A stretch of DNA of 64,000 bases from Trypanosoma brucei (Eukaryota): positions 3,040,001 through 3,104,000 of the forward strand of contig CH464491.1 of the NCBI GenBank assembly GCA_000002445.1, given 5' to 3'. Shown piece after piece: positions 6,855 to 50,770 of this stretch. Each line of letters opens with the position of its first letter. Within the stretch, counting starts at the first letter, position 1. The notes below the pieces were generated by a model. That model searched no databases and had not been told where the DNA came from. It was given only the letters and a program-made list of their open reading frames with translations. Position numbers and translations under genes: made by a program.

Positions 6855-9800
6855 ATGCTTTCAGTTTACAAACCGCGCTTTCTTACGGGAGAAAAGGGAC
6901 GTGGAGACGGACGGGGAGGAAAACACGGAAGGCAAACTTTACTGGGTCCACCGTCCCGGGGAGCCGTATGGCCAGCAGTTGCAGGAGGGGGAGCATGGCC
7001 CATAGCTGCACCGGTGCACCTCAGCCCACTTCCTGTGCCGGTGGCAACGTCGCATTGGGCGCTCTCCGGCTGTCGATTGCCGGCTACCATTCCGACAGGG
7101 AAGCGTTTGATTGGGTCCTGTGTCAATGAGATGAGCAACCTCAACGATTCTGAGAAAGCGATATGTGAGCTCATGGTTGGCTTTTTGGAGCACAAATCTG
7201 CAACTGAGGCCGAGTGTATCATGTCGGAGGTGGACGAAATGGTTTGTTCCCGTCGCTTGCTCTCACAGTACAGTGGTGTGTACGCTAGTAAATGCCCCGG
7301 TGACGCAAATGGAGGGAAAGACGAACCGTTGCGTGGAAAAACTCAGCTTATTCGCTTCCTTCGGCAGCAGCAAGAGGAAAAGGAGGAGCGGGAGAAGAAC
7401 TGGGAGCAGAGGCGGCGCCAGCGCATCGCCAGGGAAGCAGCGGAGAGAAGAGAATCACGAGAGAGGTGGAAGAAAATGTTTCTGCACAACGTAGAGGGAA
7501 AAAGCAAAAGGGAAGCCCTTCCAAAAACAGCTAAGAGAAAGGCACAAATTGGAAGGTGTATCGACAAAGAAGCTGCCAATATAAAACACAAACAACGACG
7601 GTGTGAAGACGAGGACTTTAGATTAACATCTCTAAGCGATTCCACTTTCACTGACTCTTTATGCGGCTACCCACAACATGTGCCGAACGTGGCAAGGCCC
7701 ATCAGAGTGCCAGCTGCAACCGAGCGATTCGCTAATGCAAGCGAAAAACTCACTAGGGAGGTGGCAGGTGCGCAATATATACGAGTCCCAAGGGAAATGC
7801 CGACAAGCATACGCGTCGCTTCTTCTGACAGCGAGAATACGGAAGATATTATCGAAAAAACAGATAAGTTGGTGGGGGACAGGTTAGAGGTGTTCAAACA
7901 ACGGCAAAACACAAACGACACGAGATCCAAAGAATCATTTATTGCAGCAATTCAGAAAAGTTATAGCGCACAGGGTGATGAAAGACCACTCACGACAACA
8001 GAAAACCAGCAGCAAATGACAAAAAAAGATAATCAACTGAGAAGCACAGAAGTGGAGAAAAAAACCCAGGACCCAACATCAATTACAGCTACCATCCGAT
8101 ACACCAAACAGGAGGATGACATCAAAAATAAACAAAACGCCATTTCAGAAAGAGGACTCAGTACATCAACGAACCAAAAACAAACAGAAACATTAATTAC
8201 TTCTAACAATCAACATTCAGTTGATGAGCGCCACCAATCAGACGATCGACAGCACTCCAAACGTTCTGAATCCAAGAAGGAGTTGCAGGAATCATTGCAT
8301 TCCAACAAGTCTGCAGTGAAGGATGGTGAACCTGAACTTGAGGCTTCTCAAGGTTCGAAGAAGTCACAGCGGTCCCGTGAGTCTATTCGTGAGGGTTTTG
8401 CTGATGATTTGCAATCACAGGGTTCTCAACATTCTAAACGTTCTGAATCCAAGAAGGAGTTGCAGGAATCACTACATTCCAACAAGTCTGCAGTGAAGGA
8501 TGGTGAACCTGAACTTGAGGCTTCTCAAGGTTCGAAGAAGTCACAGCGGTCCCGTGAGTCTATTCGTGAAGGTCTTGCTGATGATTTGCAATCACAGGGT
8601 TCTCAACATTCTAAACGTTCTGAATCCAAGAAGGAGTTGCAGGAATCACTACATTCCAACAAGTCTGCAGTGAAGGATGGTGAACCTGAACTTGAGGCTT
8701 CTCAAGGTTCGAAGAAGTCACAGCGGTCCCGTGAGTCTATTCGTGAGGGTTTTGTTGATGATTTGCAATCACAGGGTTCTCAACATTCTAAACGTTCTGA
8801 ATCCAAGAAGGAGTTGCAGGAATCACTACATTCCAACAAGTCTGCAGTGAAGGATGGTGAACCTGAACTTGAGGCTTCTCAAGGTTCGAAGAAGTCACAG
8901 CGGTCCCGTGAGTCTATTCGTGAAGGTCTTGCTGATGATTTGCAATCACAGGGTTCTCAACATTCTAAACGTTCTGAATCCAAGAAGGAGTTGCAGGAAT
9001 CACTACATTCCAACAAGTCTGCAGTGAAGGATGGTGAACCTGAACTTGAGGCTTCTCAAGGTTCGAAGAAGTCACAGCGGTCCCGTGAGTCTATTCGTGA
9101 GGGTTTTGCTGATGATTTGCAATCACAGGGTTCTCAACATTCTAAACGTTCTGAATCCAAGAAGGAGTTGCAGGAATCACTACATTCCAACAAGTCTGCA
9201 GTGAAGGATGGTGAACCTGAACTTGAGGCTTCTCAAGGTTCGAAGAAGTCACAGCGGTCCCGTGAGTCTATTCGTGAGGGTCTTGCTGATGATTTGCAAT
9301 CACAGGGTTCTCAACATTCTAAACGTTCTGAATCCAAGAAGGAGTTGCAGGAATCACTACATTCCAACAAGTCTGCAGTGAAGGATGGTGAACCTGAACT
9401 TGAGGCTTCTCAAGGTTCGAAGAAGTCACAGCGGTCCCGTGAGTCTATTCGTGAGGGTTTTGTTGATGATTTGCAATCACAGGGTTCTCAACATTCTAAA
9501 CGTTCTGAATCCAAGAAGGAGTTGCAGGAATCATTGCATTCCAACAAGTCTGCAGTGAAGGATGGTGAACCTGAACTTGAGGCTTCTCAAGGTTCGAAGA
9601 AGTCACAGCGGTCCCGTGAGTCTATTCGTGAGGGTTTTGTTGATGATTTGCAATCACAGGGTTCTCAACATTCTAAACGTTCTGAATCCAAGAAGGAGTT
9701 GCAGGAATCATTGCATTCCAACAAGTCTGCAGTGAAGGATGGTGAACCTGAACTTGAGGCTTCTCAAGGTTCGAAGAAGTCACAGCGGTCCCGTGAGTCT

Positions 9801-31992: not shown

Positions 31993-33480
31993 ATGGGCGG
32001 ACATAATGAAGAAGTGCGGATGCTCTCTAAGCAGGAGCTTCTCACGGAACACATTAAAGAACTGCAGAAGGACTACTCTATCAAACCACGTCTCGAGTAC
32101 ACAACCATCCGTGCAGTTAATGGACCGCTTGTGATTTTAGGGAACGTGCGGCTGCCGACATTTGCGGAGATTGTAAACATTGAGTTGGCTGACGGCACAT
32201 TGCGGCGCGGGCAGGTGCTGGAAGTGGACGGTGATAAGGCTGTTGTGCAGGTGTTTGAGGGAACCTCCGGTATTGACGTAATGCGCTCAAAGTGTGAGTT
32301 CACAGGGAAGGTGATGGAATTGGGCGTGAGTGAAGATATGCTGGGACGTGTCTTCAATGGCTCCGGCATTCCAATCGACGATGGGCCGCCGGTGTTAGCC
32401 GAGCAGTATCGCGATATTCAAGGTATTCCCATTAACCCACGCGCCCGTGTGTACCCGGAGGAAATGATTCAAACCGGTATTTCCTCCATTGATGTTATGA
32501 CTTCCATTTCGCGTGGGCAGAAAATTCCCCTCTTCTCCGGCGCTGGTCTTCCACACAATGAAATTGCGGCGCAGATCGTCCGCCAGGCCGGTTTGGTTCG
32601 CAGGGAAGGGAAACAGGAGGATTTTTGTATTGTGTTCGCGGCCATGGGTGTAAACCAGGAAACCGCTCGCTTCTTCCGCACCGAGTTCGAGGAGAACGGC
32701 TCTATGGAAAAAACCGTTCTGTTCATGAACTTGGCGAACGATCCCACCATTGAACGCATCGTCACGCCTCGCCTTGCTCTTACCACAGCGGAATATCTCG
32801 CGTATGACTGCGGGAAACACGTGCTAGTGATCCTCACTGACATGAGCTCGTATGCGGATGCCTTACGTGAGGTGTCTGCGGCGCGTGAGGAGGTCCCTGG
32901 CCGTCGTGGTTTCCCCGGTTACATGTACACAGATCTAGCATGCATTTATGAACGGGCCGGGCGTGTGCTGGGTCGTGCTGGATCCATTACACAAATACCA
33001 ATTCTCACCATGCCGAATGATGATATTACACATCCCATTCCTGACCTCACGGGGTACATCACAGAAGGGCAAATATACGTGGACCGCCAGTTGCATAACC
33101 GTCAGTTGTATCCTCCCATTAACATTTTGCCATCACTCAGCCGGCTGATGAAGAATGCCATTGGTGAGGGAATGACACGAAAGGATCACAGCGGAGTCAG
33201 CAATCAAATGTACGCCGCGTATGCCGTGAGTCGCGACATTTTGGCCATGAAGGCTGTTGTTGGTGAGGAGACGCTCAGCAGCGAAGATCTGCTGCATCTG
33301 GAGTTTCTGGAGAAGTTCGAGAAGAAGTTCATTTGCCAAGGTTTTTATGAGTCACGCGATGTGTTTCAGAGCTTGGACCTCTGCTGGCAGTTGCTCCGCA
33401 TTTTCCCGAAGGTGTTGCTCAACAAAATTGATGTGAAGACGAGAAATGAATTTTACGATCGTCAACCCGCCAACCGTTGA
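31993..33480 (+). CDS. Vacuolar-type H+-ATPase subunit B
   Basis: Near-perfect collinearity with V-ATPase B, for example [49 protein letters not shown]-like blocks and [14 protein letters not shown]. Confidence 0.9.
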
Positions 33481-39196: not shown

Positions 39197-41065
39197 ATGA
39201 ATAGGTGCAATCCTATCTCTCTCATATCTGTGTTGCTTCTATGTTGCAACGCCTGCTTGGCGCAAACGAATTGGGTCAATTCCACTGAACTGCATTTTAA
39301 GCTCCCTCCAAAGGCTCTGCGTGTCACATCGCTTGCGGACTGGAATAACCAAAACCGAGTAGGTTTTATTGGAACATGGGAGGATCGCGCGTCCCTTGTG
39401 TGGTACTGCAGCAAAGAAGGTGGTGATGACCTTTATAGTGTTTGCTGGGAGTCAGCCGAGTTTAGTGAGCCAATTGTCAGCACCATTGTGGCAGATTTGA
39501 ATCGGGATGGCGTGCTGGACATTCTTGTTCAGGGAGAAGGTGGGTCGTTGTTTTTTATTGATGGTAATAACCGTAGTTTGACACCGGCTGCTATTGAGAC
39601 GGGCGGGCCACTTAACTATGATTCCACCATCCCTCAGATAAGCATTGTAAATGTGGATGGCACATGCGGTCTGTCCGATATTGCATTTGTGGACACAAAT
39701 GGTTCGCTCATTGTCCTGTCGGCTACAACGGAGACGTCTAAAGATGGGATGTGCAGAGGAGAGGGTCTACCTACATTCGAACCGGAAGAGTTTGTGACGG
39801 GGGAAAAGGGGGTACGGGAGGTAGTTCCACTTAGCATTATCTCAGATGACATCGACGGAGACTGCGTCGCTGACTTGCTTTACATGGTTCACACCATCTC
39901 GACAAATATAGTTGAGGTCTATGCTTTCTTCCCGCGAACCGCTAGACATGAACTTCTGCTGACTTTATCAGATGCAAATCGGTATGGGTTTCCAAGTACT
40001 GCGGACATCAATGGCGATGGGGCCCCCGATTTGATATTTCCCCTATGCCGTACGGAAGGTGAATTAAAGGTCTTTGGGAACTGTTCTGCCTTTAATGGTG
40101 TTGCGGTATTTCAAAACAACCTGCAGGGATCGACTTCTTGCAGAGGCAGCTCTTGTTGTACCGGGCATCCCTACGGCTTTCTAAAGGATCCCTCATCTAT
40201 ATTCTTGCTTCAAGACAACGCTAATTGTGGTATCGACGTAAGTGCGGACTTTCCATTGTTTATACCTAACTCAAGAGAATCACCGTTGATCCTTCGGGCC
40301 GGTGATTGCGACCGAGATGGTTATGTGGACCTCCTGGTTCCCAGTACGCGCGGCCCGCTGTTGATTCAGAGTGCCGCGAACCCTAATGGGACGTTTCTTG
40401 GGTGTACTCCGGTGGACGATGCACTCACAGACCATTCAAAAAAACAGTCGTTACCATTTGGATCAGCAACGGCGTTCTTTGCCACGATCTCCGGTAAAGG
40501 TCAGCTCGATATTGTTTTAACCTATCACGGTAGTGAGGTTGTTCCACTGACCTTGTATGTTTCCCACACGCCATCACTGGAGCAAAACTACTTCCTTACT
40601 GGAAGTGCACTCAACGGAGTAGGAACTGGTGACCCATGGGGACTGTATCAACCCTCTGCGGTTCATCGCTTTGGATGGAATGATATTACCATGAAGAAGC
40701 GTTGGGCTTACGGGTCGCAGATGTCTCGAAGCCAAGGTCATGCGCTTCAGTCACCACAGTTGTTTTTCGGCTTAGGTCGCACCTTTTCATACGTCCAGGA
40801 ATACACGGTCGGCATTCTTTTTCGTAAGGACGCTCTATATCACCGCTGGTCAGCCAATCTCGTGCCAAATTCTCACGTGTTTACATGGATGCAACCACTG
40901 GCTTCTGCGGACCGGTGGCGCTTGCAGCTTTACTTAGCCTTCGCTACCTACAAGGAACTGCTATTAATCGTGCTGGGAACCGTCCTCGTGTCTGTCGGGT
41001 TGCTTATTGCGTTATTAAGGTGGAGGGAATTACGGCAAGATCAGCGGGAGCTGAAGCTGAGGTAG
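39197..41065 (+). CDS. ITFG1/TIP-like type I membrane protein with FG-GAP (integrin-alpha) repeats
   Basis: Signal peptide MNRCNPISLISVLLLCCNACLAQ. Four Ca-binding-type DxDxDG motifs (DLNRDGVLD, DIDGDCVAD, DINGDGAPD, DCDRDGYVD). Single C-terminal TM LLLIVLGTVLVSVGLLIALL. The track start at 39155 is TTG; the first ATG is 39197. Confidence 0.55.
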   Translation: MNRCNPISLISVLLLCCNACLAQTNWVNSTELHFKLPPKALRVTSLADWNNQNRVGFIGTWEDRASLVWYCSKEGGDDLYSVCWESAEFSEPIVSTIVADLNRDGVLDILVQGEGGSLFFIDGNNRSLTPAAIETGGPLNYDSTIPQISIVNVDGTCGLSDIAFVDTNGSLIVLSATTETSKDGMCRGEGLPTFEPEEFVTGEKGVREVVPLSIISDDIDGDCVADLLYMVHTISTNIVEVYAFFPRTARHELLLTLSDANRYGFPSTADINGDGAPDLIFPLCRTEGELKVFGNCSAFNGVAVFQNNLQGSTSCRGSSCCTGHPYGFLKDPSSIFLLQDNANCGIDVSADFPLFIPNSRESPLILRAGDCDRDGYVDLLVPSTRGPLLIQSAANPNGTFLGCTPVDDALTDHSKKQSLPFGSATAFFATISGKGQLDIVLTYHGSEVVPLTLYVSHTPSLEQNYFLTGSALNGVGTGDPWGLYQPSAVHRFGWNDITMKKRWAYGSQMSRSQGHALQSPQLFFGLGRTFSYVQEYTVGILFRKDALYHRWSANLVPNSHVFTWMQPLASADRWRLQLYLAFATYKELLLIVLGTVLVSVGLLIALLRWRELRQDQRELKLR

Positions 41066-41435
41066 CGAATTACGGGAGCATCATTCAGCTGTGGGGGCTG
41101 GTGTGAGGTATCGAAAGTTTTTAGTGAAAGCGCTGTGTGTCATTTGCTAAAAGAAAATACTTTAGTCAAAAAAAATATATACAATTCGTTATCGCGTTCG
41201 CGACGGTGGTGTGCTATGTCTCAAACGGAGAAGGAACACGCCTCAACGGGCTTTCACTCCTTCATACTACCTGTCTTCCTTCCATGCACTGCTACATGAA
41301 CATGTTGATGTGTTTGGGTTCGTCTATATCTTCTTTGAACGACTTTTAACAATAAAATAAAAAGTTTCCCCAAGAAGGATTGAGAAGGAAAGACCTCCTG
41401 CTTAGTAGCAGCACAAAGCAAAAGGAAGTAGACAA

Positions 41436-41609
41436 ATGGGTCACCTCCACCAATGGCGCTCCCGCCAAAAGATTGGCATGGGCAAAGGATCCCGCCACTG
41501 CGTCATTTGCTCCAACCAAAAGGCTCTCATCCGCAAGTATGAACTGAACGTCTGTCGTCAGTGCTTCCGTGAGAATGCCGAGAACATTGGTTTCGTCAAG
41601 CTGCGTTAA
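41436..41609 (+). CDS. RPS29: 40S ribosomal protein S29 (uS14)
   Basis: The 57-aa [60 protein letters not shown] has the RPS29 zinc-ribbon C-x2-C...C-x2-C and the conserved LIRKY.LN.CRQCFRE block. It is missing from the ORF track only because it is shorter than 60 aa. Confidence 0.85.
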
Positions 41610-42067
41610 GATCGCTGACACGTCATCGAATGATGAGCGAAATGGAGGGACTGACGACTCCCGTGATTGGCTGTATGGAAGGCCCTTCTCTTTTTGTCTT
41701 TTCTTTCACTGATAGGGGTACGCAACTTACGTGCTTTTTTTCCTCTTTTTTCCTTTACCTCGTGAAGATGCGAGGGTAACTGTCCTTTCCACCACCCCAC
41801 TTATTTCTCCCTTGGCTTATCAACTGCATTCAGGGAATTTGTCGTACAACTAGTCGGGAATATTGCCTCCCTTCCCTTCCCTTCCCTTCCTTTTCTTTCT
41901 TTTTCTTTTCAAACCAGGGGGGTAGATTCGTGCAGTCCACTACAGGGTTTTCAGAACCGCCTGCAAGTGGAGGCACAGACATAACCTCTGGTACCAGTGG
42001 CGAAAAAGGCGGTGGCATCTGAAAGAAGAGGTGGAGGCCGCTACGTTGAGGGCGCAGGGTTACACTA

Positions 42068-42922
42068 ATGAAGTTTTCACGCGTTGCCATACCAGGGGTG
42101 AAGCATGTTATAACACTGTGTAGTGCGAAGGGGGGAGTGGGAAAGTCCACTTGTTCCGTTAATGTTGCACTTGCTTTGAAAAATATCGGGTTTAATGTTG
42201 GTGTAGTGGATGCAGACATCACGGGACCGTCCATTCCTACGATGATGGGCGTGGACTCGTCCCAAGTGGAAACTTACCGCGTGGCGGGGAGTGACCGATT
42301 TGCACCACCTACCAATTTTGGGGTGAAGGTTATGAGCATGGGTCTTATCGTTCCTCATGATGAAGCTATAGCTGTGCGAGGACCAATGGTGAATAAGTAT
42401 ATCCGGGCCTTACTGTTTCAAACAGACTGGGATGAGTTGGACTACCTGGTGATTGATATGCCCCCGGGAACGAACGATGTCCACCTCACAATTACACAAG
42501 AGGTGGTTTTGAGGGGTGCCGTTATCATTTCTACACCACAGAAGATTGCCCTAGTAGACGTCAGGCGTGGCATAGATATGTTTGCAGCAGTAAACACGCC
42601 TATAATTGGGATTGTGGAAAACATGAGTTACTTTAAGTGTACCCAATGCGAGACAAAGCATTATCTTTTCGGTACTGGTGGAGTCAAGGCGACGGCGGAG
42701 GAGCTTGGGGTTCCATACCTCGGTGAGGTGCCTTTCCAACAACGCATTATGTCAGACACAGACGAAGGATACCCGCCGGCACTAAGGGGGGACCGCTCTC
42801 TAGATGCTGCCCTCCCATTTTATGAGCTTGCCGAGCGTATTGACACTGCAGTAAATGCTCTGGTAGCTGGTAACGACGGGCGCAAGCAAACGGTAGAAAC
42901 ACCTACCATAACGTTTCAGTAA
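42068..42922 (+). CDS. Mrp/NBP35-family P-loop ATPase (Fe-S cluster carrier, Ind1/Cfd1-like)
   Basis: Deviant Walker A CSAKGGVGKST. Conserved DLDYLVIDMPPGT and the cluster-bridging CTQC motif in ENMSYFKCTQCETKHYLFG. It lacks the N-terminal ferredoxin-like Cys box of Nbp35 proper. Confidence 0.7.
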   Translation: MKFSRVAIPGVKHVITLCSAKGGVGKSTCSVNVALALKNIGFNVGVVDADITGPSIPTMMGVDSSQVETYRVAGSDRFAPPTNFGVKVMSMGLIVPHDEAIAVRGPMVNKYIRALLFQTDWDELDYLVIDMPPGTNDVHLTITQEVVLRGAVIISTPQKIALVDVRRGIDMFAAVNTPIIGIVENMSYFKCTQCETKHYLFGTGGVKATAEELGVPYLGEVPFQQRIMSDTDEGYPPALRGDRSLDAALPFYELAERIDTAVNALVAGNDGRKQTVETPTITFQ

Positions 42923-43281
42923 AAACGATAATCCGAAAAGGTGAGTCGTTCACACAAGCCGTAACGCAGTCTTTTCCCTACGACGGCAACTTACTTTGTT
43001 ATTATACCATTTTTCAATAAAATAAATCATTACCGATCCCTCTCTGCGTTTAAGCGCAACCCCACTCTTTCGAAATGCCCTTTGCACCGATCACTAAAAG
43101 CTCCACACGCGCATACATACATATTTTTTCTTCTTTCTCCTTCCCATTCCCTCCAATGTGTATTGCTGTAAGACTATTAACTACATCAAGGGCACAAACA
43201 TTTAAAAGAGTTGATAAACACAAAGTTCATACAAAAGGAATTAAACTGATCAGCTGAATTCTAAACCCCGGCATTATATCG

Positions 43282-44769
43282 ATGATGCGTCCACTCTCAC
43301 TTGTGTGGTGGGCTATCTTCGTACTCCTCGCTGCTACAGGCGCAAATTGCTCGTACGTGCTGGAGCTTGTCCAGGTGGTTCATCGTGGTGGAATCACCCC
43401 GCCGCCCGTCGGAACACCCGATCGCGAAAAACTATGCAGCCCCGACAGCGGGAGCAGTTGTGCCGCCATCGCAAATCATGGCGTGCAACAGCTTATCGAC
43501 ATGGGTGCCTACATTGAGAAACTTTACAAAAATGATGATGAAACAGAAGGGGCCAAAGCATGGTTGGGCTCCACATATGATTCGGCCGCTGTGTACACTC
43601 ATTCCTTTGCTGATCCCGCACTGGTGCAGGCTGCAACAGCTTTACTGAAGGGTATATACGCCGAGGAGCAGGGTAATATCACACCTGCAGTGATTTCAGC
43701 ACCTCCCGCGGATGATACGCTACTCAATGTTAATGCTCTCCCTTCGTTTGTCCTCGGGAACGAGGCAAAAGCGCAGCATTTCAATAAGACAATGGAAGAA
43801 GCTGTAGACGAGCAGTTCCCCGACAGCAGTGTTATTGGTACGATGGGGAGGGAGGTTGGGTTAAGCGAAGCGTGTTCGTCAGCCGACAACCGTGTTTGGT
43901 GCTGCCACCGTCTGCAGCAACTCGCAACGATGTACTCTGCAATGAAGGATGGTGGTAGTGGTGCGCCAACGGTGATGGAAAATGTGGGACGACTGGATGC
44001 TGTTGCAACTGTTCGCTCCCATACGCTTTACGGTTACTCTACTGAGGATGAACTGGCGAAAGCCCGTGGGAGCCTTGGACAACCATTGGCACAGGAACTT
44101 CTTTTGGGAATGCGTCGCAAGATGTTGCAAAAGGATGATGTCAATTACAACACTCACAAAGTAATGCAGTATGTTCACAACACTCCAATCCGTACTACTG
44201 TTGGGTACCAACCAACGGACCTAGTGCCAGTTGCTGAAACCTTTCTTATTGACCTTCTCCGTGACGACACTACGGAAGTGTACTTTGTACGCCTACGCCA
44301 CGCTGTTGTGAAAACGGAGCCCGCTGCCATGCCGTCAGCCGCTGACTTCCCGTTTCGATGTGTCAATGCTGCGGGGGATTCGAGTGGGGTAAAGTCAAAG
44401 GATGGCTTCATTTGCCCCTTCGATGACTTTGTGCGCTTCGTGGACAGCAGCAAGGGTACAGGTGCTGGCGGTGCCATTTGTCATTTAGACACCAGTACGG
44501 CAGATAATTTACAGTGTAGTGTAGTGGGTCCGCCCACATCACCACAGTGTGAGCGTTACCGGAGGCTGTGTCCACGCCTGGCATGCCCGGATGGCCACAT
44601 TTACGACGTGGTGAGTGGTATGTGCACATCTCTTTATGCGGATGAAGCGATTCTCACAGGTGGCGTTGTTGCGTCCCTCTGTATCGCTCTCTTATTCTCG
44701 GGGGTGATGCTCGGCATTATCATGGTTGAAATGTACCCGGTGATGTTTAAACAAAAGATGGCTGTCTAA
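43282..44769 (+). CDS. Membrane-bound histidine-acid-phosphatase-like protein with degenerate catalytic motifs (probable pseudo-phosphatase)
   Basis: Signal peptide, a large lumenal domain, and a C-terminal TM (GGVVASLCIALLFSGVMLGIIMV). The position expected for RHGxRxP reads VVHRGGITPP, and the distal HD-motif position reads YVHNTP. Confidence 0.4.
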   Translation: MMRPLSLVWWAIFVLLAATGANCSYVLELVQVVHRGGITPPPVGTPDREKLCSPDSGSSCAAIANHGVQQLIDMGAYIEKLYKNDDETEGAKAWLGSTYDSAAVYTHSFADPALVQAATALLKGIYAEEQGNITPAVISAPPADDTLLNVNALPSFVLGNEAKAQHFNKTMEEAVDEQFPDSSVIGTMGREVGLSEACSSADNRVWCCHRLQQLATMYSAMKDGGSGAPTVMENVGRLDAVATVRSHTLYGYSTEDELAKARGSLGQPLAQELLLGMRRKMLQKDDVNYNTHKVMQYVHNTPIRTTVGYQPTDLVPVAETFLIDLLRDDTTEVYFVRLRHAVVKTEPAAMPSAADFPFRCVNAAGDSSGVKSKDGFICPFDDFVRFVDSSKGTGAGGAICHLDTSTADNLQCSVVGPPTSPQCERYRRLCPRLACPDGHIYDVVSGMCTSLYADEAILTGGVVASLCIALLFSGVMLGIIMVEMYPVMFKQKMAV

Positions 44770-45409
44770 ATTTTTTACAGGTCGCTATGCACTGCGGTGG
44801 CCAGTATGCCGTGTTTGTATTTTTTTCCTTTTTTTTTCTCTGACATCATTGTTAAATATTCAATGTTTTGCCGAGATATGATGGCATGAATATTTATCAG
44901 TGATGTGCAGTTGTACAGGGGTCATAGGCACGGGGGGGTGGGGGAGAAGGACGGACATTGTCGTGAGTTGTGGATGGTGGAAGCGTTAAAAAGCGCCCTC
45001 CTCACGATAAACACGTAAATTGTTATTTATTTATTTAAATATCAGGTATTATATAATCGTTTATTTATTATTATTATTTTTTTGTGTTCGTGCGTTTGGT
45101 TTTTGAGGTTGTCGGCCCCTCAAACAGTAGTAGACTAGACCACGGAAGGGGAAGGGGTCTAAAAGAAATCCACTTAAATTTAGGAACTCTGTGGCAGTGC
45201 GTTTTATTTTTCATTTGTATGTAATTCTTTGTTTTTTAAATTTTTGTTACCTTCAAAGCTCAGGCTCTGCACACGTTGGAGTGTGTGTTGTACTGTTTAC
45301 TTTGCACATTGTGTTAAGGTTACGATAACAGAGGTAACAAGTGAAGCGGAGGATGAAATAGAGAATTAAATGAAGAATGACGGGGAGAGGAAGGGAGGAA
45401 CGAATTCGA

Positions 45410-45434
45410 ATATATATATATATATATATATATT
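45410..45434. repeat. (AT)12 microsatellite
   Basis: gaatatatatatatatatatatatattgat, intergenic. Confidence 0.85.
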
Positions 45435-45589
45435 GATATAGTGGCTGGCCATCCTATTTTGTCCGTAGCATGTTTTTTTCTTATCGTATTTGTTATTCAT
45501 ATTATTTGTTTTATCAGGAGGAAAGAAGTATTAAGGGGGAAATGAAAGATTTATTTCTTGGGGGCGAGGGGATCTTTTGTTCGCGGATC

Positions 45590-45603
45590 GGGGGGGGGGG
45601 GGG
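45590..45603 (+). other. G14 homopolymer tract
   Basis: gatcggggggggggggggtagacg. Shorter G8 (about 21860-21867) and G10 (about 31222-31231) runs occur elsewhere in spacers. Confidence 0.7.
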
Positions 45604-46424
45604 TAGACGACCAGCTGTTTTTTAAACATTTTTATCAGGTTGTTGTTGAGGAGGAACAAGGAAAGTATTTAACAGGCGTTGTGATGTTTGAAGCACGTGT
45701 ATCCAACGGTTCAAGCACAACTAAAGCCAAAAGCTCGTACAATCAAGTACGCAGTGGAGGGAAAACTGTTTCCTCTCTCTGTTCTATTAAGAATACTTAA
45801 CAATAAGAAATAAGCGAACCATGTGATGAATGTTACACTGCGGGACTTTTAAACTATGACCTCCACAATAGTGGCTGCGCTAATGCCCCTCACTGCCCCA
45901 CTGAACCGCAGCAACGTTACATGACACCTTCCATTGTCGCGGTCATGTGGTTCGTGGACACTGTTTGGTATTTCTTATTACTATCATTTTGTGTTCTTTA
46001 CTTTTTTGTGTGCGTGCTATTGTGTTTGCTTTTCGTACTTTTACTGTAAGCACCGGATGCACACGCGAGTTTTCCCTGTGGTGCAATTCCTTTTCCTCTG
46101 CTTCTTATCATCCTCGACGAGGCCACGCACTAACACACCTCAACCCACATTTTTTATTTTTTTTTTACGACAACTTCTACCTCCACCACATTCTCGCGCG
46201 CTGAGTGTGTGTATGGCTACCATGGAAAGGACAGAAGAAGGGAAACTTCTTTTTTTTTTTTTGTACTCTGCAGGTAGCTTTACAGCGGCTGCTCCTCTCA
46301 CACCTCCTTTAGTTCATCTAGTTGTCCATCAGCCCTCTGCACATACGCGGGGGTGCTAGCGGTGGCAAACAGTGAAGGCGAGTGCGACGGCTGCTCTAAC
46401 CAAGAGGAAACTCGTTCAATCTTT

Positions 46425-46448
46425 TGTTTGCTCTCTCTCTCTCTACTG
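46425..46448 (+). promoter_or_regulatory. (CT)n polypyrimidine tract directly upstream of ATG 46449
   Basis: tttgtttgctctctctctctctactg then atggattttggc. Confidence 0.35.
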
Positions 46449-47486
46449 ATGGATTTTGGCACGGATGTAGCAGCATTGCCAGCGCGCCGCACAAAACTTG
46501 TATTCCTCTACAGCAGCGATGACGAAGACGATGATAAGGGAACTGTGGCATCCACAGCAATGGGGACGCCTATGATGGGGGAAGTTTGTGGGGTTCTCCA
46601 TAATGGTAACGGGTGCAGTGGTTCAATTGCCGTTGAGGTGGAGGAAGAGGCATGCCTGAGGCCACCAGCGGAGGATCTCATGGTCATGCGTCAGGAAGCG
46701 GATGCGTTGAAGCAAAAGGAAGAAAAGGAGGACCCCGATTTCGTGGAGGATGTTGAGGGGGTTGCGGAGGTGCCGACGCGCCCCCGTGTGAAAGTTGTCG
46801 ATGCACCAGCCTTGTGGGAAACTGCGGCAGGGCTGCGGAATTATTTGCGTGCGGAGGAGGTTGGGACCCTCTCGAATTCACACAAACGTTTCCGCGAGGA
46901 GGAAAAAGACGAATTGAATGCGTGCGCTACCGGGGTGGAAAGGAGGCCTCGGCCACTGTTTGATGATGATGGACTTGTCCGAGCCGTGGCGGTAGATGGT
47001 TACACGCTCACAGTTGACGAAACTGAATTGCAACAAGTGTGTGGTTCTGAAGGGACGCGTGAGCGTTGTGCCGAAGACAGGGAACTCCATGATTATCTTG
47101 ACTGTGATGAGCGCTGTGAGCTGGGCGGTGAAGATGCGGATGAGGGGCGGGAAGAAGAGGAAGGTGAATACGGTGATGATGAGGAAGATGAAGATGACGA
47201 GGAGGAGGATGAGGAGCTAGACGCCGCGCTGGTTGTTGCCGTTGTCGAGCAGTTGGTTCGCTGCTGCGAAAGCGATGAACTTGACGAAGCCCTGCGTGGT
47301 GACGGAGATCAGTTCCTGGAGCGTGCGCGTCCACTGCTCCATCAAGTAAACTCCGGTGAAATGGAACCCTTGGCGTTTGGCGAGGAGGTAAGGAAGGACA
47401 TACTGAAGTTGCAGCGTGCATTTAGGCGTGTGAGCCGCCCTCGGGACGAGCCAGTTGTTATTGATGGAGTTGTGATGGACATCTGA
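46449..47486 (+). CDS. Hypothetical acidic protein (D/E-rich tracts)
   Basis: ATG immediately after a (CT)n polypyrimidine tract. Long acidic runs (SSDDEDDDKG; EEEEGEYGDDEEDEDDEEEDEELD). The track start at 46353 is GTG. Confidence 0.4.
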   Translation: MDFGTDVAALPARRTKLVFLYSSDDEDDDKGTVASTAMGTPMMGEVCGVLHNGNGCSGSIAVEVEEEACLRPPAEDLMVMRQEADALKQKEEKEDPDFVEDVEGVAEVPTRPRVKVVDAPALWETAAGLRNYLRAEEVGTLSNSHKRFREEEKDELNACATGVERRPRPLFDDDGLVRAVAVDGYTLTVDETELQQVCGSEGTRERCAEDRELHDYLDCDERCELGGEDADEGREEEEGEYGDDEEDEDDEEEDEELDAALVVAVVEQLVRCCESDELDEALRGDGDQFLERARPLLHQVNSGEMEPLAFGEEVRKDILKLQRAFRRVSRPRDEPVVIDGVVMDI

Positions 47487-48308
47487 AACCGAAGCAAGCC
47501 ATTCCGAGCTGGACGACCCCTGTGGAGACAAAGGAGGAAAATAAGAACCGTGTAAAGGCTTGGGCATGCGATTTAAGAATCACGTTGTTGGTGCTTGTGC
47601 CGCAAAGAACTGATTCCTCTACTGAACAGCATCTACTACACAATGCAGTGCACTGCACCTGTTAGTCCCTACACCCTTGTTAGTTTCTTTTCCATTTTTT
47701 TTTCCGCTCTTCTAGCTGTGTCCTCATTTCGGTTGTCAGCACCCTAGCTTTTCACACCGTAAGACCGGTGACCAGCAATACACGTATCTTTCTACCCAAC
47801 AAGTCGGACAGAGGTGGCGAGGAGGGAAAGCCATTGCTCTTTTGGGTACTCGAGAACATAAAGTTAACAGAAGGAAGCTGCCGACCACAACGATAAGGGA
47901 GTGTAAATGAACAAGGGGGACGCTGGGACCCGTGATGTGCGTCCCAAAGGCTGACAAGGGAAAGAGGCAATTGGAGAGGTGAGGGACGGTGGGGTGCCGT
48001 GTCACATTGGTGTTTTCGTAGGTTTGGTATGAAAAAATTATGTTTTACGCGTGAGTGTTGTGGGGGCGGCTCGTTTCCATACACCCGGAAGCTTTACCTC
48101 ACGCACAGTTAGGTCCAAATAGTTTCATCGTCGGAGCCAGCATACGTTTCTCTCCAAAAGTGGTGTGGTGCTTCACAACGGAGTTGTTGTGCACTTGTAA
48201 TTTCACCCTTATTTTTTGTCATTTCTTTGTTCTCTAGTTTTCAGGGAGAAGGTAACAGTTGGTAAACCTCCGACATAAGGGAGAGTAGCAAACAGGCAGC
48301 GAGGTTAT

Positions 48309-49637
48309 ATGAATCCAGAAGCGGAGGAATTTGTACCGAAGGGGAACCGCACACCAGGATCCGGTGGTCGGCGTGGAAACGGTGGTGGCTCCCGGCAGAT
48401 TCCGGTCCGCGGGGAACGTCAACAACCACCACCACCACCACCACCACCACAGCAGCAACAGCAGCAGGTGGCGCCGTCGTCACAGACAACACTTCGCGCG
48501 AGTGCAGAGCCATTCCAGCCTAAGGGCTCCCAAGGATTTGGGCTCGTTGGGCAAGTACTTCCATATGTTGCCGGCCCACCAGGCGGTGTCCCACAAGCGT
48601 GGGAGTCTGTGGAGCCAGTGCCTCCGCTTTCTGTGTGGAAGAGTGATTCAGTGCAGCAAGCGGGCGCAAAACCGCTGTCACTTAGCGCCACACCCTATAC
48701 GCCTACTAACCCAAAGATTTCGTCCAAGTTCCCAGCCACTCCTGAGGCTCAGCGGGGCCCTTCAACAGAGTTTAAGGACACGACACCAGCGTCACTTCAG
48801 CCTCAGGAAAAGGAAGTGGTAGAGGTAGGTGAAAAGGCTGTGGCTATAGCCTCGCCCCCGGAGGAAGATGCTGTTGCCGCCAATGGTGGCTCTGTTGATG
48901 CCAGCGGCGCACCATCAACGCAGAACTTCACCGTAGGTGAGATAGTGGAGAACGACTTTAGCGGATCGATGCTTCCCAGTTTGTTTCAGGTAGAGGTGCT
49001 AGACAAGCCGGCCCCTGCCGAGCCTGTTCGGTTTAATACAGTGTGGGCCCTCTATGCCGACGAGCATCCAACACCGTTTGGAGCTCCGTTAGCGTATCAC
49101 CCGGTTCTCGTCCACCTTGTTGGGGATGTTGAGTGCTTCTGGCGCCTGTGGAGGCACCTGCCCCCTCCATCCACGTTGCTGCCCGCCTTCACATATCACT
49201 GGTTCCGTCGGGACATTAGGCCGAACTGGGAGCACACCCGTAATAAGAATGGTGGAACAATCACCTTCGTAATATTTGACAGAGACAAGCCGGGTTTGAA
49301 TAACAAGCAGACAATGGATGATGCTTTCATGGCGATGCTCATGGCATGCAGTGGGGAATCTTTGGCGGAGAGTACAACGAACCTCAACGGCGTGATGCTC
49401 AAGGTGCGACAGAACAAACCCACAACGCTGCAGATTTGGACAGCCAGCTCAGATGAGTTGAAGCTCAGGTCCTTAGCCCGTAGTCTGAGGACTTTATTAG
49501 AAAAGGTTATTGGGCCCAAGCCACTGCAAAAGCTAGAATATTTCTCGCATCAAAGGACGCAGGTTGGTGCCCCCGGTAGTCTGGCCGGAAGGATGAAAGG
49601 AAAACCGTCGAGGATAACACCCGACTTCACGCTTTAG
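48309..49637 (+). CDS. EIF4E3: eIF4E-family cap-binding protein with long N-terminal extension (kinetoplastid EIF4E3/EIF4E4 type)
   Basis: The C-terminal 200 aa carry the eIF4E fold signature FNTVWALYADEHP...HPVLVHLVGDVECFWRLWRHLPPPS...YHWFRRDIRPNWEH..NKNGGTITF...DDAFMAMLMACSGE...NGVMLKVRQNKPTTLQIWT. The N-terminus has PAM2-like MNPEAEEFVP and SAEPFQPKG boxes and a poly-Pro/Gln run. Confidence 0.75.
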   Translation: MNPEAEEFVPKGNRTPGSGGRRGNGGGSRQIPVRGERQQPPPPPPPPQQQQQQVAPSSQTTLRASAEPFQPKGSQGFGLVGQVLPYVAGPPGGVPQAWESVEPVPPLSVWKSDSVQQAGAKPLSLSATPYTPTNPKISSKFPATPEAQRGPSTEFKDTTPASLQPQEKEVVEVGEKAVAIASPPEEDAVAANGGSVDASGAPSTQNFTVGEIVENDFSGSMLPSLFQVEVLDKPAPAEPVRFNTVWALYADEHPTPFGAPLAYHPVLVHLVGDVECFWRLWRHLPPPSTLLPAFTYHWFRRDIRPNWEHTRNKNGGTITFVIFDRDKPGLNNKQTMDDAFMAMLMACSGESLAESTTNLNGVMLKVRQNKPTTLQIWTASSDELKLRSLARSLRTLLEKVIGPKPLQKLEYFSHQRTQVGAPGSLAGRMKGKPSRITPDFTL

Positions 49638-50770
49638 TAATCGCTGCTTGCGTACACGTACCGTAAACAGAACATGTTTTTCTTTTGTGTGTGTGTGTGT
49701 GCATGTATGGTGGGCGTATGCCATGTTATGTGGATGGGAGGGGAGACATTAGGTGGAACGCACAGACAAGATGCGATTCTCACCGATGGTGGGGAAATGA
49801 CACACATATAATATCTATATCTATATATATATATATATAGATGTTAAGGATGGGAGGAAGTAGAGTGGAAGGTGATGGATGGGACTTTCCTTCACACACC
49901 AAGGGAAAAAAGTGGGGAGGGGAGTGTAACGGTGCCTTTCTTGCCCTTTAAACTCGAGTCCGCTAGTGCATTTGAGGCGTGTTGTCTCCAACCACTTGTT
50001 TGTTTTCTCCTATAAAAGCTGTAGCACCATTGTTTGGAGTGTCCGACGCAGTGAGCAAACGAAACCGGAGAAAATGTGTTGCATGTGTTCACTGAAGCGC
50101 TCGGGCGGTATTGTAATCGGGAAAAGGTCACGACCCCATAACAAGAGAAAAATTGAAAATAGGTCGTGGTCGCCCGCATGCACTTCGCTTTTCCTTTTAC
50201 GGGTAAGGTTTTTTTTTTCCATCACCATGTGGTGTTTTACTTATCAGCTCCTCTGTTTGTAGCCCATGTGTCTTTGTGACCAGTGGCTCGTTATGTTGCT
50301 TTATATATTTATGTACATATATATATATATATATATATAAGGAAGACAATAAAAGGGATGTTTTCGGCGTTAGTAAACAGACATTTCACTATTGTTTTTG
50401 TTACTCTTATTATTGTTACCGTTACTGTTGTTGTTTTGTTTTCGGTTCTTGACCTCTTTTCCTTCTCACGTGAATGCATCGCAGTATCGCCAGTGCGGAA
50501 TTCCATCACCGCCACCACTACGACCACCAACGAGCACGTAAGCTTATCGCGAGGTTGTTAGGCTGCAGCACAGTTATTTCTTTTTTTTTTTTAGTGCATA
50601 GCCGTTACCAAAGCGACCAACGGGCTCTCCAGTTTTCGCACACATGAAGAGGGAACGAGGAAGGGTGGGTGTAAGCGCAAGGTTTCAATTCGGTGTGATG
50701 TGTGTTTGATATTATGAATGTTTGTTTATTTATTTATACATGTTTCCTATCCTTGTGTGCGTGCCTGCGT

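What the first reader, a model, noticed from the sequence alone, without database searches (positions are those of the whole stretch)
43282..44769. Acid-phosphatase-like type I membrane protein in which both catalytic signatures appear mutated (RHG to RGG; HD to HN)
The domain organisation and spacing resemble trypanosomatid membrane-bound histidine acid phosphatases. These have a signal peptide, an N-terminal RHGxRxP motif about 35 aa in, a distal HD motif and a C-terminal TM. Here the first motif position reads VVHRGGITPP. The nucleophilic His is replaced by Gly and the second Arg by Thr. The distal motif reads YVHNTP, with the Asp proton donor replaced by Asn. If the homology is real, this is a catalytically dead pseudo-phosphatase that could act as a phosphoprotein or ligand binder at the surface or endosomal membrane. 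The homology call itself rests on my recollection of family motifs, not on a computed alignment.
Basis: inference. Interest (0 to 1): 0.5.

Follow-up and report, generated by a model that had tools for sequence, protein, structure and literature searches.

The report
Catalytically dead membrane acid phosphatase homolog
This Trypanosoma brucei gene encodes a membrane-anchored protein with a confidently predicted acid-phosphatase fold but only two of the six residues that do the chemistry, and this "dead enzyme" is conserved across the genus, so it is probably a non-catalytic binder or scaffold rather than the "putative acid phosphatase" the databases call it.

Summary
[quoted passage not shown] It is distinct from MBAP1 and MBAP2.

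Of 54 paralogs, 51 keep all six; of 13 syntenic Trypanosoma orthologs, none does. All 12 family cysteines and the scaffold glycines and prolines are retained, and pN (0.24) is far below saturated pS (0.75).

It is therefore a conserved pseudo-phosphatase whose phosphate pocket is itself dismantled. A non-phosphate ligand-binding or scaffold role is more likely than phosphoprotein binding. Flea salivary pseudo-phosphatases carry the same His-to-Gly change, are inactive, and bind small ligands.

Also noticed: an ancient tandem pair with gene-converted ectodomains and two conserved tail types. No activity was assayed.

The parts
43282..44769 (+). Complete CDS (495 aa plus stop) of the pseudo-histidine-acid-phosphatase. 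Identical to T. b. brucei TREU927 XP_829237.1 / EAN80125.1; most likely Tb927.11.11740 = Tb11.01.3610.
   Evidence: identity to P0162. Gene ID inferred from position two genes upstream of eIF4E (Tb927.11.11770 = Tb427tmp.01.3630) and from the product name.
43282..43350 (+). N-terminal hydrophobic signal-peptide-like segment (aa 1-23, MMRPLSLVWWAIFVLLAATGANC).
   Evidence: Hydropathy. Aligned to the signal region of LmSAP1 and paralogs. The cleavage site was not predicted with a dedicated tool.
43351..44412 (+). Histidine-acid-phosphatase fold (alpha/beta core plus helical cap), about aa 24-377.
43381..43407 (+). Degenerate first signature H34-R35-G36-G37-I38-T39-P40-P41-P42, in place of HRHGARxP. 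The nucleophile His is Gly and the second Arg is Thr. PPP is invariant in the orthogroup.
   Evidence: In 54 paralogs these positions are H 52/54 and R 54/54.
43600..43638 (+). Degenerate 'RSTxxxRTxQSA' segment (aa 107-119, HSFADPALVQAAT). The third phosphate-binding Arg (LmSAP R109 / human PAP R79) is Ala113, and the family Ser is Ala117 (invariant Ala in the orthogroup).
   Evidence: R is 54/54 in paralogs and 0/13 in the orthogroup.
43900..43920 (+). Cap-domain pocket segment C207-Q213, aligned to LmSAP C200-D206. It includes the equivalents of substrate-pocket residues L202 and Y205. The Asp that is 100% conserved in paralogs is Gln213 here.
   Evidence: alignment numbering, and PMC13096585 for L202/Y205.
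44170..44187 (+). Degenerate second signature Y297-V-H299-N300-T-P. The His is retained (invariant) and the proton-donor Asp is Asn. A 3-residue deletion follows relative to paralogs.
44413..44625 (+). Family-specific C-terminal Cys-rich module (aa 378-448; CPFDDF...C400...C412...C423..YR..C430P...AC435P...C448). The homologous region forms the dimer 'bridge' in LmSAP.
   Evidence: All six Cys of this module (378, 400, 412, 423, 430, 435, 448 region) are conserved in both orthogroup and paralogs. Bridge module described in PMC13096585. Model pLDDT is about 93-97.
44626..44766 (+). Isoform-specific 'type A' juxtamembrane, transmembrane helix (aa about 459-485, nt 44656-44736) and short cytoplasmic tail (KQKMAV).
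   Evidence: The gene-conversion tract ends at codon 448.
43035..44626 (+). Tract that is duplicated (99.6% identical, 3455-bp period) in T. b. gambiense. This window carries it once, joined to the copy-1 upstream flank and the copy-2 tail.
   Evidence: blastn of the window against L005, and L005 against itself. PMC2854126 Table 1b.

Best explanation
The gene encodes a pseudo-enzyme: a type I membrane glycoprotein with the full histidine-acid-phosphatase fold of the trypanosomatid MBAP/SAP family but a dismantled catalytic and phosphate-binding pocket. Of the six residues that carry out phosphohistidine catalysis (LmSAP R35, H36, R39, R109, H286, D287), T. brucei keeps only R35 and H299. It therefore cannot form the phospho-His intermediate and has lost three of the five positively charged residues that hold phosphate. 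The protein arose by duplication of an active MBAP-type gene before the radiation of the genus Trypanosoma. It lost R109 and the D206-equivalent early, since both are absent in every ortholog, and the remaining catalytic positions then drifted lineage by lineage. The scaffold, all disulfide cysteines and the C-terminal dimer 'bridge' module stayed under purifying selection. Inferred mechanism: it acts non-catalytically in the lumen or ectoplasmic face of the secretory-endocytic membrane system. It would act either as a binder of a non-phosphate ligand in the remodelled cleft, as flea pseudo-acid-phosphatases do, or as a dimerising scaffold or partner. Two alternative transmembrane/cytoplasmic-tail isoforms would direct the same ectodomain to different membranes. 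Shown here: homology, fold, residue mapping, orthogroup-wide degeneracy, synteny, purifying selection, and the two-tail isoforms. Inferred: lack of activity, ligand or scaffold role, and location.
Against: No enzymatic, binding or localisation data exist for this protein in anything I could read. LdMAcP lacks the H286/D287 pair yet confers measurable ecto-phosphatase activity (PMC4687092), so motif loss is not always equivalent to inactivity. T. cruzi and T. conorhini orthologs still carry the nucleophile His, and T. conorhini has RHGVRPP plus HE, which could mean residual or different chemistry in some lineages. R35 and H299 are invariant, so some anion binding cannot be excluded. I could not inspect model coordinates, so whether a cleft persists is not shown. 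The protein was not found in the held text of one bloodstream-form surface proteome where MBAP1 and MBAP2 were found. That is uninformative about function but gives no support for surface location.
Confidence: 0.75

Rival explanations
1. It is still a working phosphatase, or another hydrolase, that uses a non-canonical mechanism, for example another His (invariant H34 or H299) as nucleophile, or water activation. The database name 'membrane-bound acid phosphatase' would then be functionally correct.
For: H34, R35, G37 and H299 are invariant in all 67 aligned sequences. LdMAcP retains activity without H286/D287. The flea paper itself notes cases where enzymes lacking canonical residues keep activity. 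T. cruzi-clade orthologs retain the nucleophile His.
Against: In T. brucei the nucleophile and two of three phosphate-clamping Arg are missing simultaneously, as is the proton donor. The positions vary freely among orthologs (G/S/H/R; T/A/R/S/E; A/V/S/I/F; N/D/E/Q/R), which is the signature of relaxed constraint rather than of a new fixed catalytic solution. Flea proteins with the same H->G change are inactive on pNPP. H34 is equally conserved in active paralogs, so it is structural and not a replacement.
Confidence: 0.08
2. It is a regulatory or structural partner of the active paralogs. It would heterodimerise with MBAP1 or MBAP2 through the conserved alpha2 and C-terminal bridge interfaces and tune their trafficking or activity, with no ligand of its own.
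For: LmSAP protomers are obligate homodimers held by the core module and a C-terminal 'bridge' (PMC13096585). The Cys-rich C-terminal module and its six Cys are fully conserved here. Pseudoenzymes pairing with active paralogs is a common theme (general knowledge). MBAP1 resides in all endosomal membranes and is essential for endocytosis.
Against: Only about 25% identity to paralogs, so interface compatibility is untested. The orthogroup-specific invariant residues (PPP40-42, A117, D324) are not obviously interface residues. There are no interaction data. I could not obtain the TbMBAP1 sequence to test co-variation.
Confidence: 0.2
3. It is a non-functional relic, a decaying duplicate of an MBAP gene that merely remains open by chance.
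For: Catalytic residues are degenerate and variable. Copy number varies (1 assembled copy here, 2 in T. b. gambiense, >=7 in T. cruzi).
Against: Full-length intact ORFs occur at the syntenic site in at least 10 species spanning the genus. 118 invariant columns and all 12 family Cys are retained. pN 0.24 is far below pS 0.75. Two distinct tail types are each conserved across species. Transcript regulation has been reported.
Confidence: 0.02

Closest known systems
Leishmania mexicana secreted acid phosphatase SAP1 (PDB 28ik / 9tbj; PMC13096585)
   Same: Closest solved relative (E=8.7e-30; co-linear over residues 10-449, even sharing numbering at R35/36/39). Same HAP core plus cap, the same conserved disulfide cysteines, and the same family-specific C-terminal Cys-rich 'bridge' module.
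   Different: SAP1 has the intact R35-H36-R39-R109-H286-D287 set and is active, secreted and filament-forming, with a Ser/Thr-rich region. The window protein has R-G-T-A-H-N, a transmembrane anchor and no Ser/Thr-rich region.
TbMBAP1 (Tb927.11.13130), membrane-bound histidine acid phosphatase essential for endocytosis
   Same: Same species and chromosome, same type I architecture (signal, HAP ectodomain, transmembrane helix at about residue 460, short Lys-containing tail).
   Different: Different locus and length (524 vs 495 aa). Described in the literature as a histidine acid phosphatase present in all endosomal membranes. I could not retrieve its sequence, so its catalytic residues were not checked here. 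The window gene is not MBAP1 and not MBAP2 (Tb927.10.7140).
T. cruzi membrane-bound acid phosphatase 2 (XP_819901.1; P0033) and other trypanosomatid His_Phos_2 paralogs
   Same: Same family, size and Cys pattern, and same genus.
   Different: The paralogs keep HRHG[AS]R, RT and AHD (51/54 have the full set) and hit Pfam His_Phos_2. The window orthogroup does not.
Flea salivary acid-phosphatase-like pseudoenzymes XcAP-1/2/3 (PDB 8gdl; PMC10728186)
   Different: Independent origin (insect, secreted, no transmembrane helix and no Cys-rich C-terminal module). The flea proteins also lose the distal His, which is retained here, and appear to retain Lys31/Arg78 near the site. Their ligands (host amines, leukotrienes) relate to blood feeding.
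Leishmania donovani LdMAcP (PMC4687092)
   Same: A membrane-anchored member of the same family with an incomplete catalytic set.
   Different: LdMAcP lacks H286/D287 but keeps RHGxRxP, and it is reported to be active as an ecto-phosphatase. The window protein keeps H286-equivalent but lacks the nucleophile and two Arg.

Membership tests
Histidine phosphatase superfamily, branch 2 (histidine acid phosphatases; Pfam PF00328 His_Phos_2) | Alpha/beta core plus alpha-helical cap fold | tested here: met
Histidine phosphatase superfamily, branch 2 (histidine acid phosphatases; Pfam PF00328 His_Phos_2) | Significant match to the curated family model | tested here: not met
   No PF00328 hit for the window protein even at E<=10. 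8/12 orthologs hit weakly, best E=4.3e-05. Homology is nevertheless established through LmSAP1 (E=8.7e-30) and hhalign (E=9.1e-78).
Histidine phosphatase superfamily, branch 2 (histidine acid phosphatases; Pfam PF00328 His_Phos_2) | RHGxRxP signature with nucleophilic His and second Arg | tested here: not met
   The sequence is R35-G36-G37-I38-T39-P40-P41, so His->Gly and Arg->Thr.
Histidine phosphatase superfamily, branch 2 (histidine acid phosphatases; Pfam PF00328 His_Phos_2) | Third phosphate-binding Arg (human PAP R79 / LmSAP R109) | tested here: not met
   Ala113. Arg in 54/54 paralogs and in 0/13 orthogroup members.
Histidine phosphatase superfamily, branch 2 (histidine acid phosphatases; Pfam PF00328 His_Phos_2) | Distal HD motif (His plus proton-donor Asp) | tested here: not met
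   H299 is retained and Asp is replaced by Asn300.
Histidine phosphatase superfamily, branch 2 (histidine acid phosphatases; Pfam PF00328 His_Phos_2) | Acid phosphomonoesterase activity via a phospho-His intermediate | not testable with these tools
   Needs a recombinant protein assay. Predicted absent from the residue losses and from the flea H->G precedent.
Trypanosomatid MBAP/SAP subfamily (structural membership) | Signal peptide, HAP domain, conserved Cys-rich C-terminal module, with or without a transmembrane anchor | tested here: met
   Topology. 12/12 family-conserved Cys are present, including C400, C412, C423, C430, C435 and C448. Co-linear alignment with LmSAP1 to residue 449.
Pseudoenzyme (pseudo-phosphatase) | Retained enzyme fold, loss of residues essential for catalysis, and evidence of continued selection | tested here: met
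   Fold. Four of six catalytic residues lost. Purifying selection and genus-wide syntenic conservation.
Pseudoenzyme (pseudo-phosphatase) | Demonstrated absence of the ancestral activity | not testable with these tools
   No assay was possible, and none was found in the literature searched.

The most novel reading that the evidence does not exclude
The protein is an ancient, genus-wide receptor-like pseudo-phosphatase whose remodelled former active-site cleft binds a non-phosphate ligand (a lipid or a host/vector-derived small molecule). The same ectodomain is deliberately deployed to two different membrane destinations by two alternative transmembrane/tail cassettes. These cassettes have been kept distinct since the Trypanosoma ancestor, while gene conversion keeps the ectodomains identical. 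If so, this would be a previously unrecognised uptake, sensing or scavenging system of the flagellar-pocket/endosomal pathway. It would also show that the MBAP fold has non-catalytic roles in trypanosome endocytosis.
Probability: 0.2. Interest if true: 0.65.

Novelty: new variant of a known kind. Interest (0 to 1): 0.45.

Why it matters
Databases, and at least one comparative-genomics gene list (PMC6872171), count this gene among T. brucei phosphatases. The evidence here says it almost certainly is not one, so annotation and phosphatome inventories should change.

Its paralog MBAP1 is essential for endocytosis in bloodstream trypanosomes, and I found nothing in what I could read saying whether that depends on catalysis. 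A conserved, naturally catalysis-free member of the same fold in the same organism is a ready-made tool for separating scaffold functions from enzymatic functions.

The gene is restricted to Trypanosoma, amplified to at least seven copies in T. cruzi, predicted to face the lumen or outside, and comes in two conserved tail isoforms. That profile suggests a lineage-specific membrane-trafficking or host-interface function.

Together with the flea salivary proteins, it would be a second, independent case of a histidine acid phosphatase repurposed after a His-to-Gly change.

Tried and rejected
- **Direct family scans:** Pfam and NCBIfam scans of the protein gave only sub-threshold noise (POU2AF2 E=0.009; BafA E=0.046), which I dismissed as chance.
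- **First structure job:** the AlphaFold run on the 12-ortholog alignment failed (pLDDT 44.7) and was discarded. It was redone with 67 sequences.
- **Word-indexed homolog searches:** with the ortholog profile, the search returned only the same 12 proteins. With the paralog profile it did not retrieve TbMBAP1, so MBAP1's own catalytic residues could not be checked.
- **Second 495-aa ORF:** the ORF at 31993..33480 was tested as a possible paralog and is V-ATPase subunit B.
- **Downstream ORF:** the ORF at 46353..47486 was tested as the 'second tandem copy' reported in the literature. It is unrelated, and there are no direct repeats in 41-51 kb.
- **Two-domain hits:** P0013-P0016 looked like the nearest outgroup (E about 1e-100) but are two-domain proteins whose per-domain scores (about 180 bits) are ordinary.
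- **Angomonas synteny:** the locus of the best single-domain outgroup hit is not syntenic; it is a His_Phos_2 array next to MatE transporters.
- **dN/dS:** a T. brucei/T. congolense ratio could not be given as a number because synonymous sites are saturated. Only pN far below pS is claimed.
- **Literature gaps:** Engstler et al. 2005 is not in the library. The gene was not found in the held supplements of one surface-proteome paper. No paper describing this gene as inactive was found.

Full report
**What is there.** The ORF is exactly as reported: 43282..44769 on the + strand, 495 codons plus stop. It lies in a long same-strand run of housekeeping genes: V-ATPase B, an eIF2B-epsilon-like gene, DUF676, ITFG1-like, a NUBPL-type P-loop ATPase, the target, an acidic protein of unknown function, an eIF4E homolog, an acyl-CoA dehydrogenase, an R3H protein and a PIF1 helicase. 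This is typical of a trypanosomatid polycistronic unit.

The protein is identical to T. b. brucei TREU927 XP_829237.1 / EAN80125.1, which is also deposited for T. equiperdum. It differs by one residue (A102T) from T. b. gambiense CBH18199.

By position it is most likely Tb927.11.11740 = Tb11.01.3610. It sits two genes upstream of eIF4E Tb927.11.11770 = Tb427tmp.01.3630, and the product name is "Membrane-bound acid phosphatase, putative". The ID assignment is an inference. It is not TbMBAP1 (Tb927.11.13130, 524 aa) and not MBAP2 (Tb927.10.7140).

**Topology.** Hydropathy shows an N-terminal hydrophobic segment (aa 1-23), one transmembrane helix (about 459-485) and a very short tail (KQKMAV). 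There are three sequons (N22, N132, N168) and 15 Cys. The type I description is confirmed, although no dedicated signal-peptide predictor was available.

**Is the homology real?** Pfam His_Phos_2 does not detect this sequence even at E<=10, and NCBIfam finds nothing. Every more sensitive test, however, is decisive.

- phmmer against PDB sequences finds L. mexicana secreted acid phosphatase SAP1 at E=8.7e-30, co-linear over residues 10-449.
- The ortholog profile raises this to 1.1e-49 and adds human ACP6.
- 8 of 12 orthologs hit PF00328 weakly.
- Profile-profile comparison with 48 intact paralogs gives probability 100% and E=9.1e-78 over 464 columns.
- A first AlphaFold model from 12 orthologs was useless (pLDDT 44.7). 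With 67 sequences the model reached pLDDT 90.6 and pTM 0.85.
- Foldseek's top 50 PDB hits are all branch-2 histidine acid phosphatases.

**Mapping the catalytic residues.** The LmSAP structure paper lists the catalytic set as R35, H36, R39, R109, H286 and D287 (PMC13096585). Three independent alignments map these to R35, G36, T39, A113, H299 and N300.

In addition, an Asp that is 100% conserved in 54 paralogs is Gln213 here. It corresponds to LmSAP D206, next to pocket residues L202 and Y205. The family 'QSA' Ser is an invariant Ala117. The protein contains no RHG, HD or HE anywhere, so no intact pair is hiding elsewhere.

**Is this peculiar to T. brucei?** No. An exhaustive HMM search of 1.84 billion representatives found 131 homologs. 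The orthogroup scores at least 733 bits, and the next single-domain proteins score at most 236 bits. The orthogroup contains only Trypanosoma: brucei, congolense, vivax, grayi, theileri, melophagium, cruzi, conorhini, rangeli, plus one unnamed SRA-derived sequence. A published comparison lists Tb927.11.11740 among T. brucei phosphatases with no Herpetomonas ortholog.

Orthology is confirmed by synteny. In T. cruzi the same eIF2B-like/DUF676/ITFG1/NUBPL run is followed by the gene array. In T. b. gambiense the pair lies between NUBPL and eIF4E.

At the six catalytic positions, 51 of 54 paralog-level homologs read R-H-R-R-H-D, and 0 of 13 orthogroup sequences do.

| Catalytic position (LmSAP numbering) | State in the orthogroup |
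|---|---|
| R109 | absent in all 13 |
| H36 (nucleophile His) | kept only in T. cruzi and T. conorhini (plus one of two T. rangeli sequences, P0011, seen in the 12-sequence alignment) |
| R39 (second Arg) | kept only in T. grayi and T. conorhini |
| D287 (proton donor) | kept only in T. congolense and T. vivax |

In contrast, T. cruzi MBAP2 in the same genome keeps the full set. The simplest history (an inference) is an early inactivating loss (R109, D206) in the Trypanosoma ancestor, followed by free drift of the now-unconstrained catalytic positions.

**Is it still functional?** Yes, by every indirect criterion.

- The orthogroup alignment has 118 invariant columns and 63% mean column identity.
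- All 12 family-conserved cysteines and the scaffold Gly/Pro/Tyr positions are retained, while the pocket positions alone are relaxed.
- Between T. brucei and T. congolense, synonymous sites are saturated (pS 0.75) but pN is 0.24.
- The mRNA appears in a regulated-transcript list.

This combination of retained fold, lost chemistry and continued purifying selection defines a pseudoenzyme.

**How it most likely works.** Phospho-His catalysis is impossible without the nucleophile. With R39 and R109 also gone, the phosphate clamp is largely removed.

The alternative is a scaffold or partner role through the dimer interfaces. LmSAP is an obligate dimer with a C-terminal bridge module, and that module is fully conserved here.

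One caveat remains. LdMAcP lacks the HD pair yet is reported to be active (PMC4687092), so inactivity must be assayed. The case here rests on the combined loss of the nucleophile and two Arg, not on HD->HN alone.

**A second feature found on the way.** T. b. gambiense, T. congolense and T. cruzi each carry at least two copies. Their ectodomains are 99-100% identical within a species, but from the residue after the last Cys (C448) they switch to one of two unrelated juxtamembrane/transmembrane/tail cassettes. Each cassette type is conserved across species.

- **T. b. gambiense:** the identical tract is 1609 bp (99.6%), starts 262 bp upstream of the ATG and ends at codon 448, with a 3455-bp period.
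- **T. cruzi:** ectodomain dS between isoforms is 0.009, while the tails are saturated. The array has at least seven copies alternating between 503 and 511 aa.

This is concerted evolution of the ectodomain, with long-term maintenance of two tail types.

The window carries one copy. Its upstream flank matches gambiense copy 1, and its tail and downstream flank match copy 2. The T. b. gambiense genome paper lists this locus as single in the brucei assembly and double in gambiense, with reads for the missing isoform present in both read sets (PMC2854126). The single copy here is therefore probably an assembly collapse.

**Novelty and verdict.** The gene is annotated and the family is well known, so this is not a new kind of system. 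I found no paper noting that this orthogroup lacks the catalytic apparatus, and it is counted as a phosphatase in gene lists. A conserved, membrane-anchored, two-isoform pseudo-histidine-acid-phosphatase in Trypanosoma is a new variant of a known kind. It is moderately interesting because its active paralog MBAP1 is essential for endocytosis. Nothing about its activity, ligand or location has been measured.

Noticed in passing
window 43035-44626 (shared tract) and 44626-44766 (type A tail); L005:4282-5888 and 7737-9345; P0163, P0165, P0167: Within each species the copies have 99-100% identical ectodomains. After C448 they switch to one of two unrelated transmembrane/tail cassettes: type A '..E(M/I)xPV..' and type B '..(H/Q)xCP(L/M)..'. 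Each type is conserved from T. brucei to T. cruzi. T. cruzi ectodomain dS is 0.009 while the tails are saturated. This indicates gene conversion of the ectodomain with two ancient tail isoforms, presumably for different sorting.
   Followed up: yes
window 41000-50000 vs L005 (T. b. gambiense FN554974): The window holds a single copy whose 5' flank equals gambiense copy 1 and whose tail and 3' flank equal copy 2. About 1.85 kb carrying the type B tail is missing. PMC2854126 reports reads for the missing isoform in both subspecies, so this is probably an assembly collapse rather than a real deletion.
   Followed up: partly
L003 and L004 (T. cruzi MBSY01000613.1, about 543-570 kb): The T. cruzi ortholog is amplified to a tandem array of at least seven genes with a period of about 2.5 kb, in the order 503/511/511/511/503/503/511 aa, directly after the NUBPL-like gene.
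   Followed up: partly
P0013-P0016 (865-971 aa; Logan SRA assemblies, organism unknown): These proteins have two complete MBAP-like domains in tandem. Several of the domains have lost or altered one or more catalytic positions: P0015 domain 1 reads HNYGAA and SVD, P0016 domain 2 reads HEFGVR and QYT, P0016 domain 1 reads HREGAR, and P0014 domain 1 has PRN. The partner domain is intact in P0014 and P0015, whereas both domains of P0016 are affected. These look like independent pseudo-domains paired with an active one.
   Followed up: partly
P0085, P0090, P0047 (representative-library hits): Three other single-domain homologs outside the orthogroup also deviate at catalytic positions in the A2 alignment: P0085 reads R-G-R-R-S-D with HRGGAR, the same His-to-Gly change; P0090 reads T-N-R-R-A-T; P0047 has D at the distal His position. 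This suggests recurrent inactivation in the family.
   Followed up: no
L001 (Angomonas deanei LR877147.1, 556890-578443): The best single-domain outgroup hit sits in a cluster of five His_Phos_2 genes, next to two MatE transporter genes and a GDPD gene. It is not syntenic with the Trypanosoma locus.
   Followed up: no
window 46353-47486 (+): The next gene downstream encodes a very acidic, Asp/Glu-rich protein (377 aa from a GTG start; called as 345 aa in other assemblies) with no Pfam match. It is not related to the phosphatase-like gene.
   Followed up: partly
Tb927.11.11750 (not identifiable in this window): [quoted passage not shown] By gene-number arithmetic there is one extra gene ID between Tb927.11.11710 and .11770 relative to the old IDs. 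It may be the second (type B) copy, which would give protein-level evidence of expression, but I could not verify this.
   Followed up: partly
window 31993-33480 (+): A second ORF of exactly 495 aa in the window is V-ATPase subunit B. The equal length is a coincidence (BLASTP E=0.73 against the target).
   Followed up: yes
P0006 vs P0011 (two T. rangeli sequences): The nucleophile position differs within one species (HRRG in one entry, HRHG in strain SC58). This is consistent with relaxed constraint at that site, or with divergent array copies.
   Followed up: no
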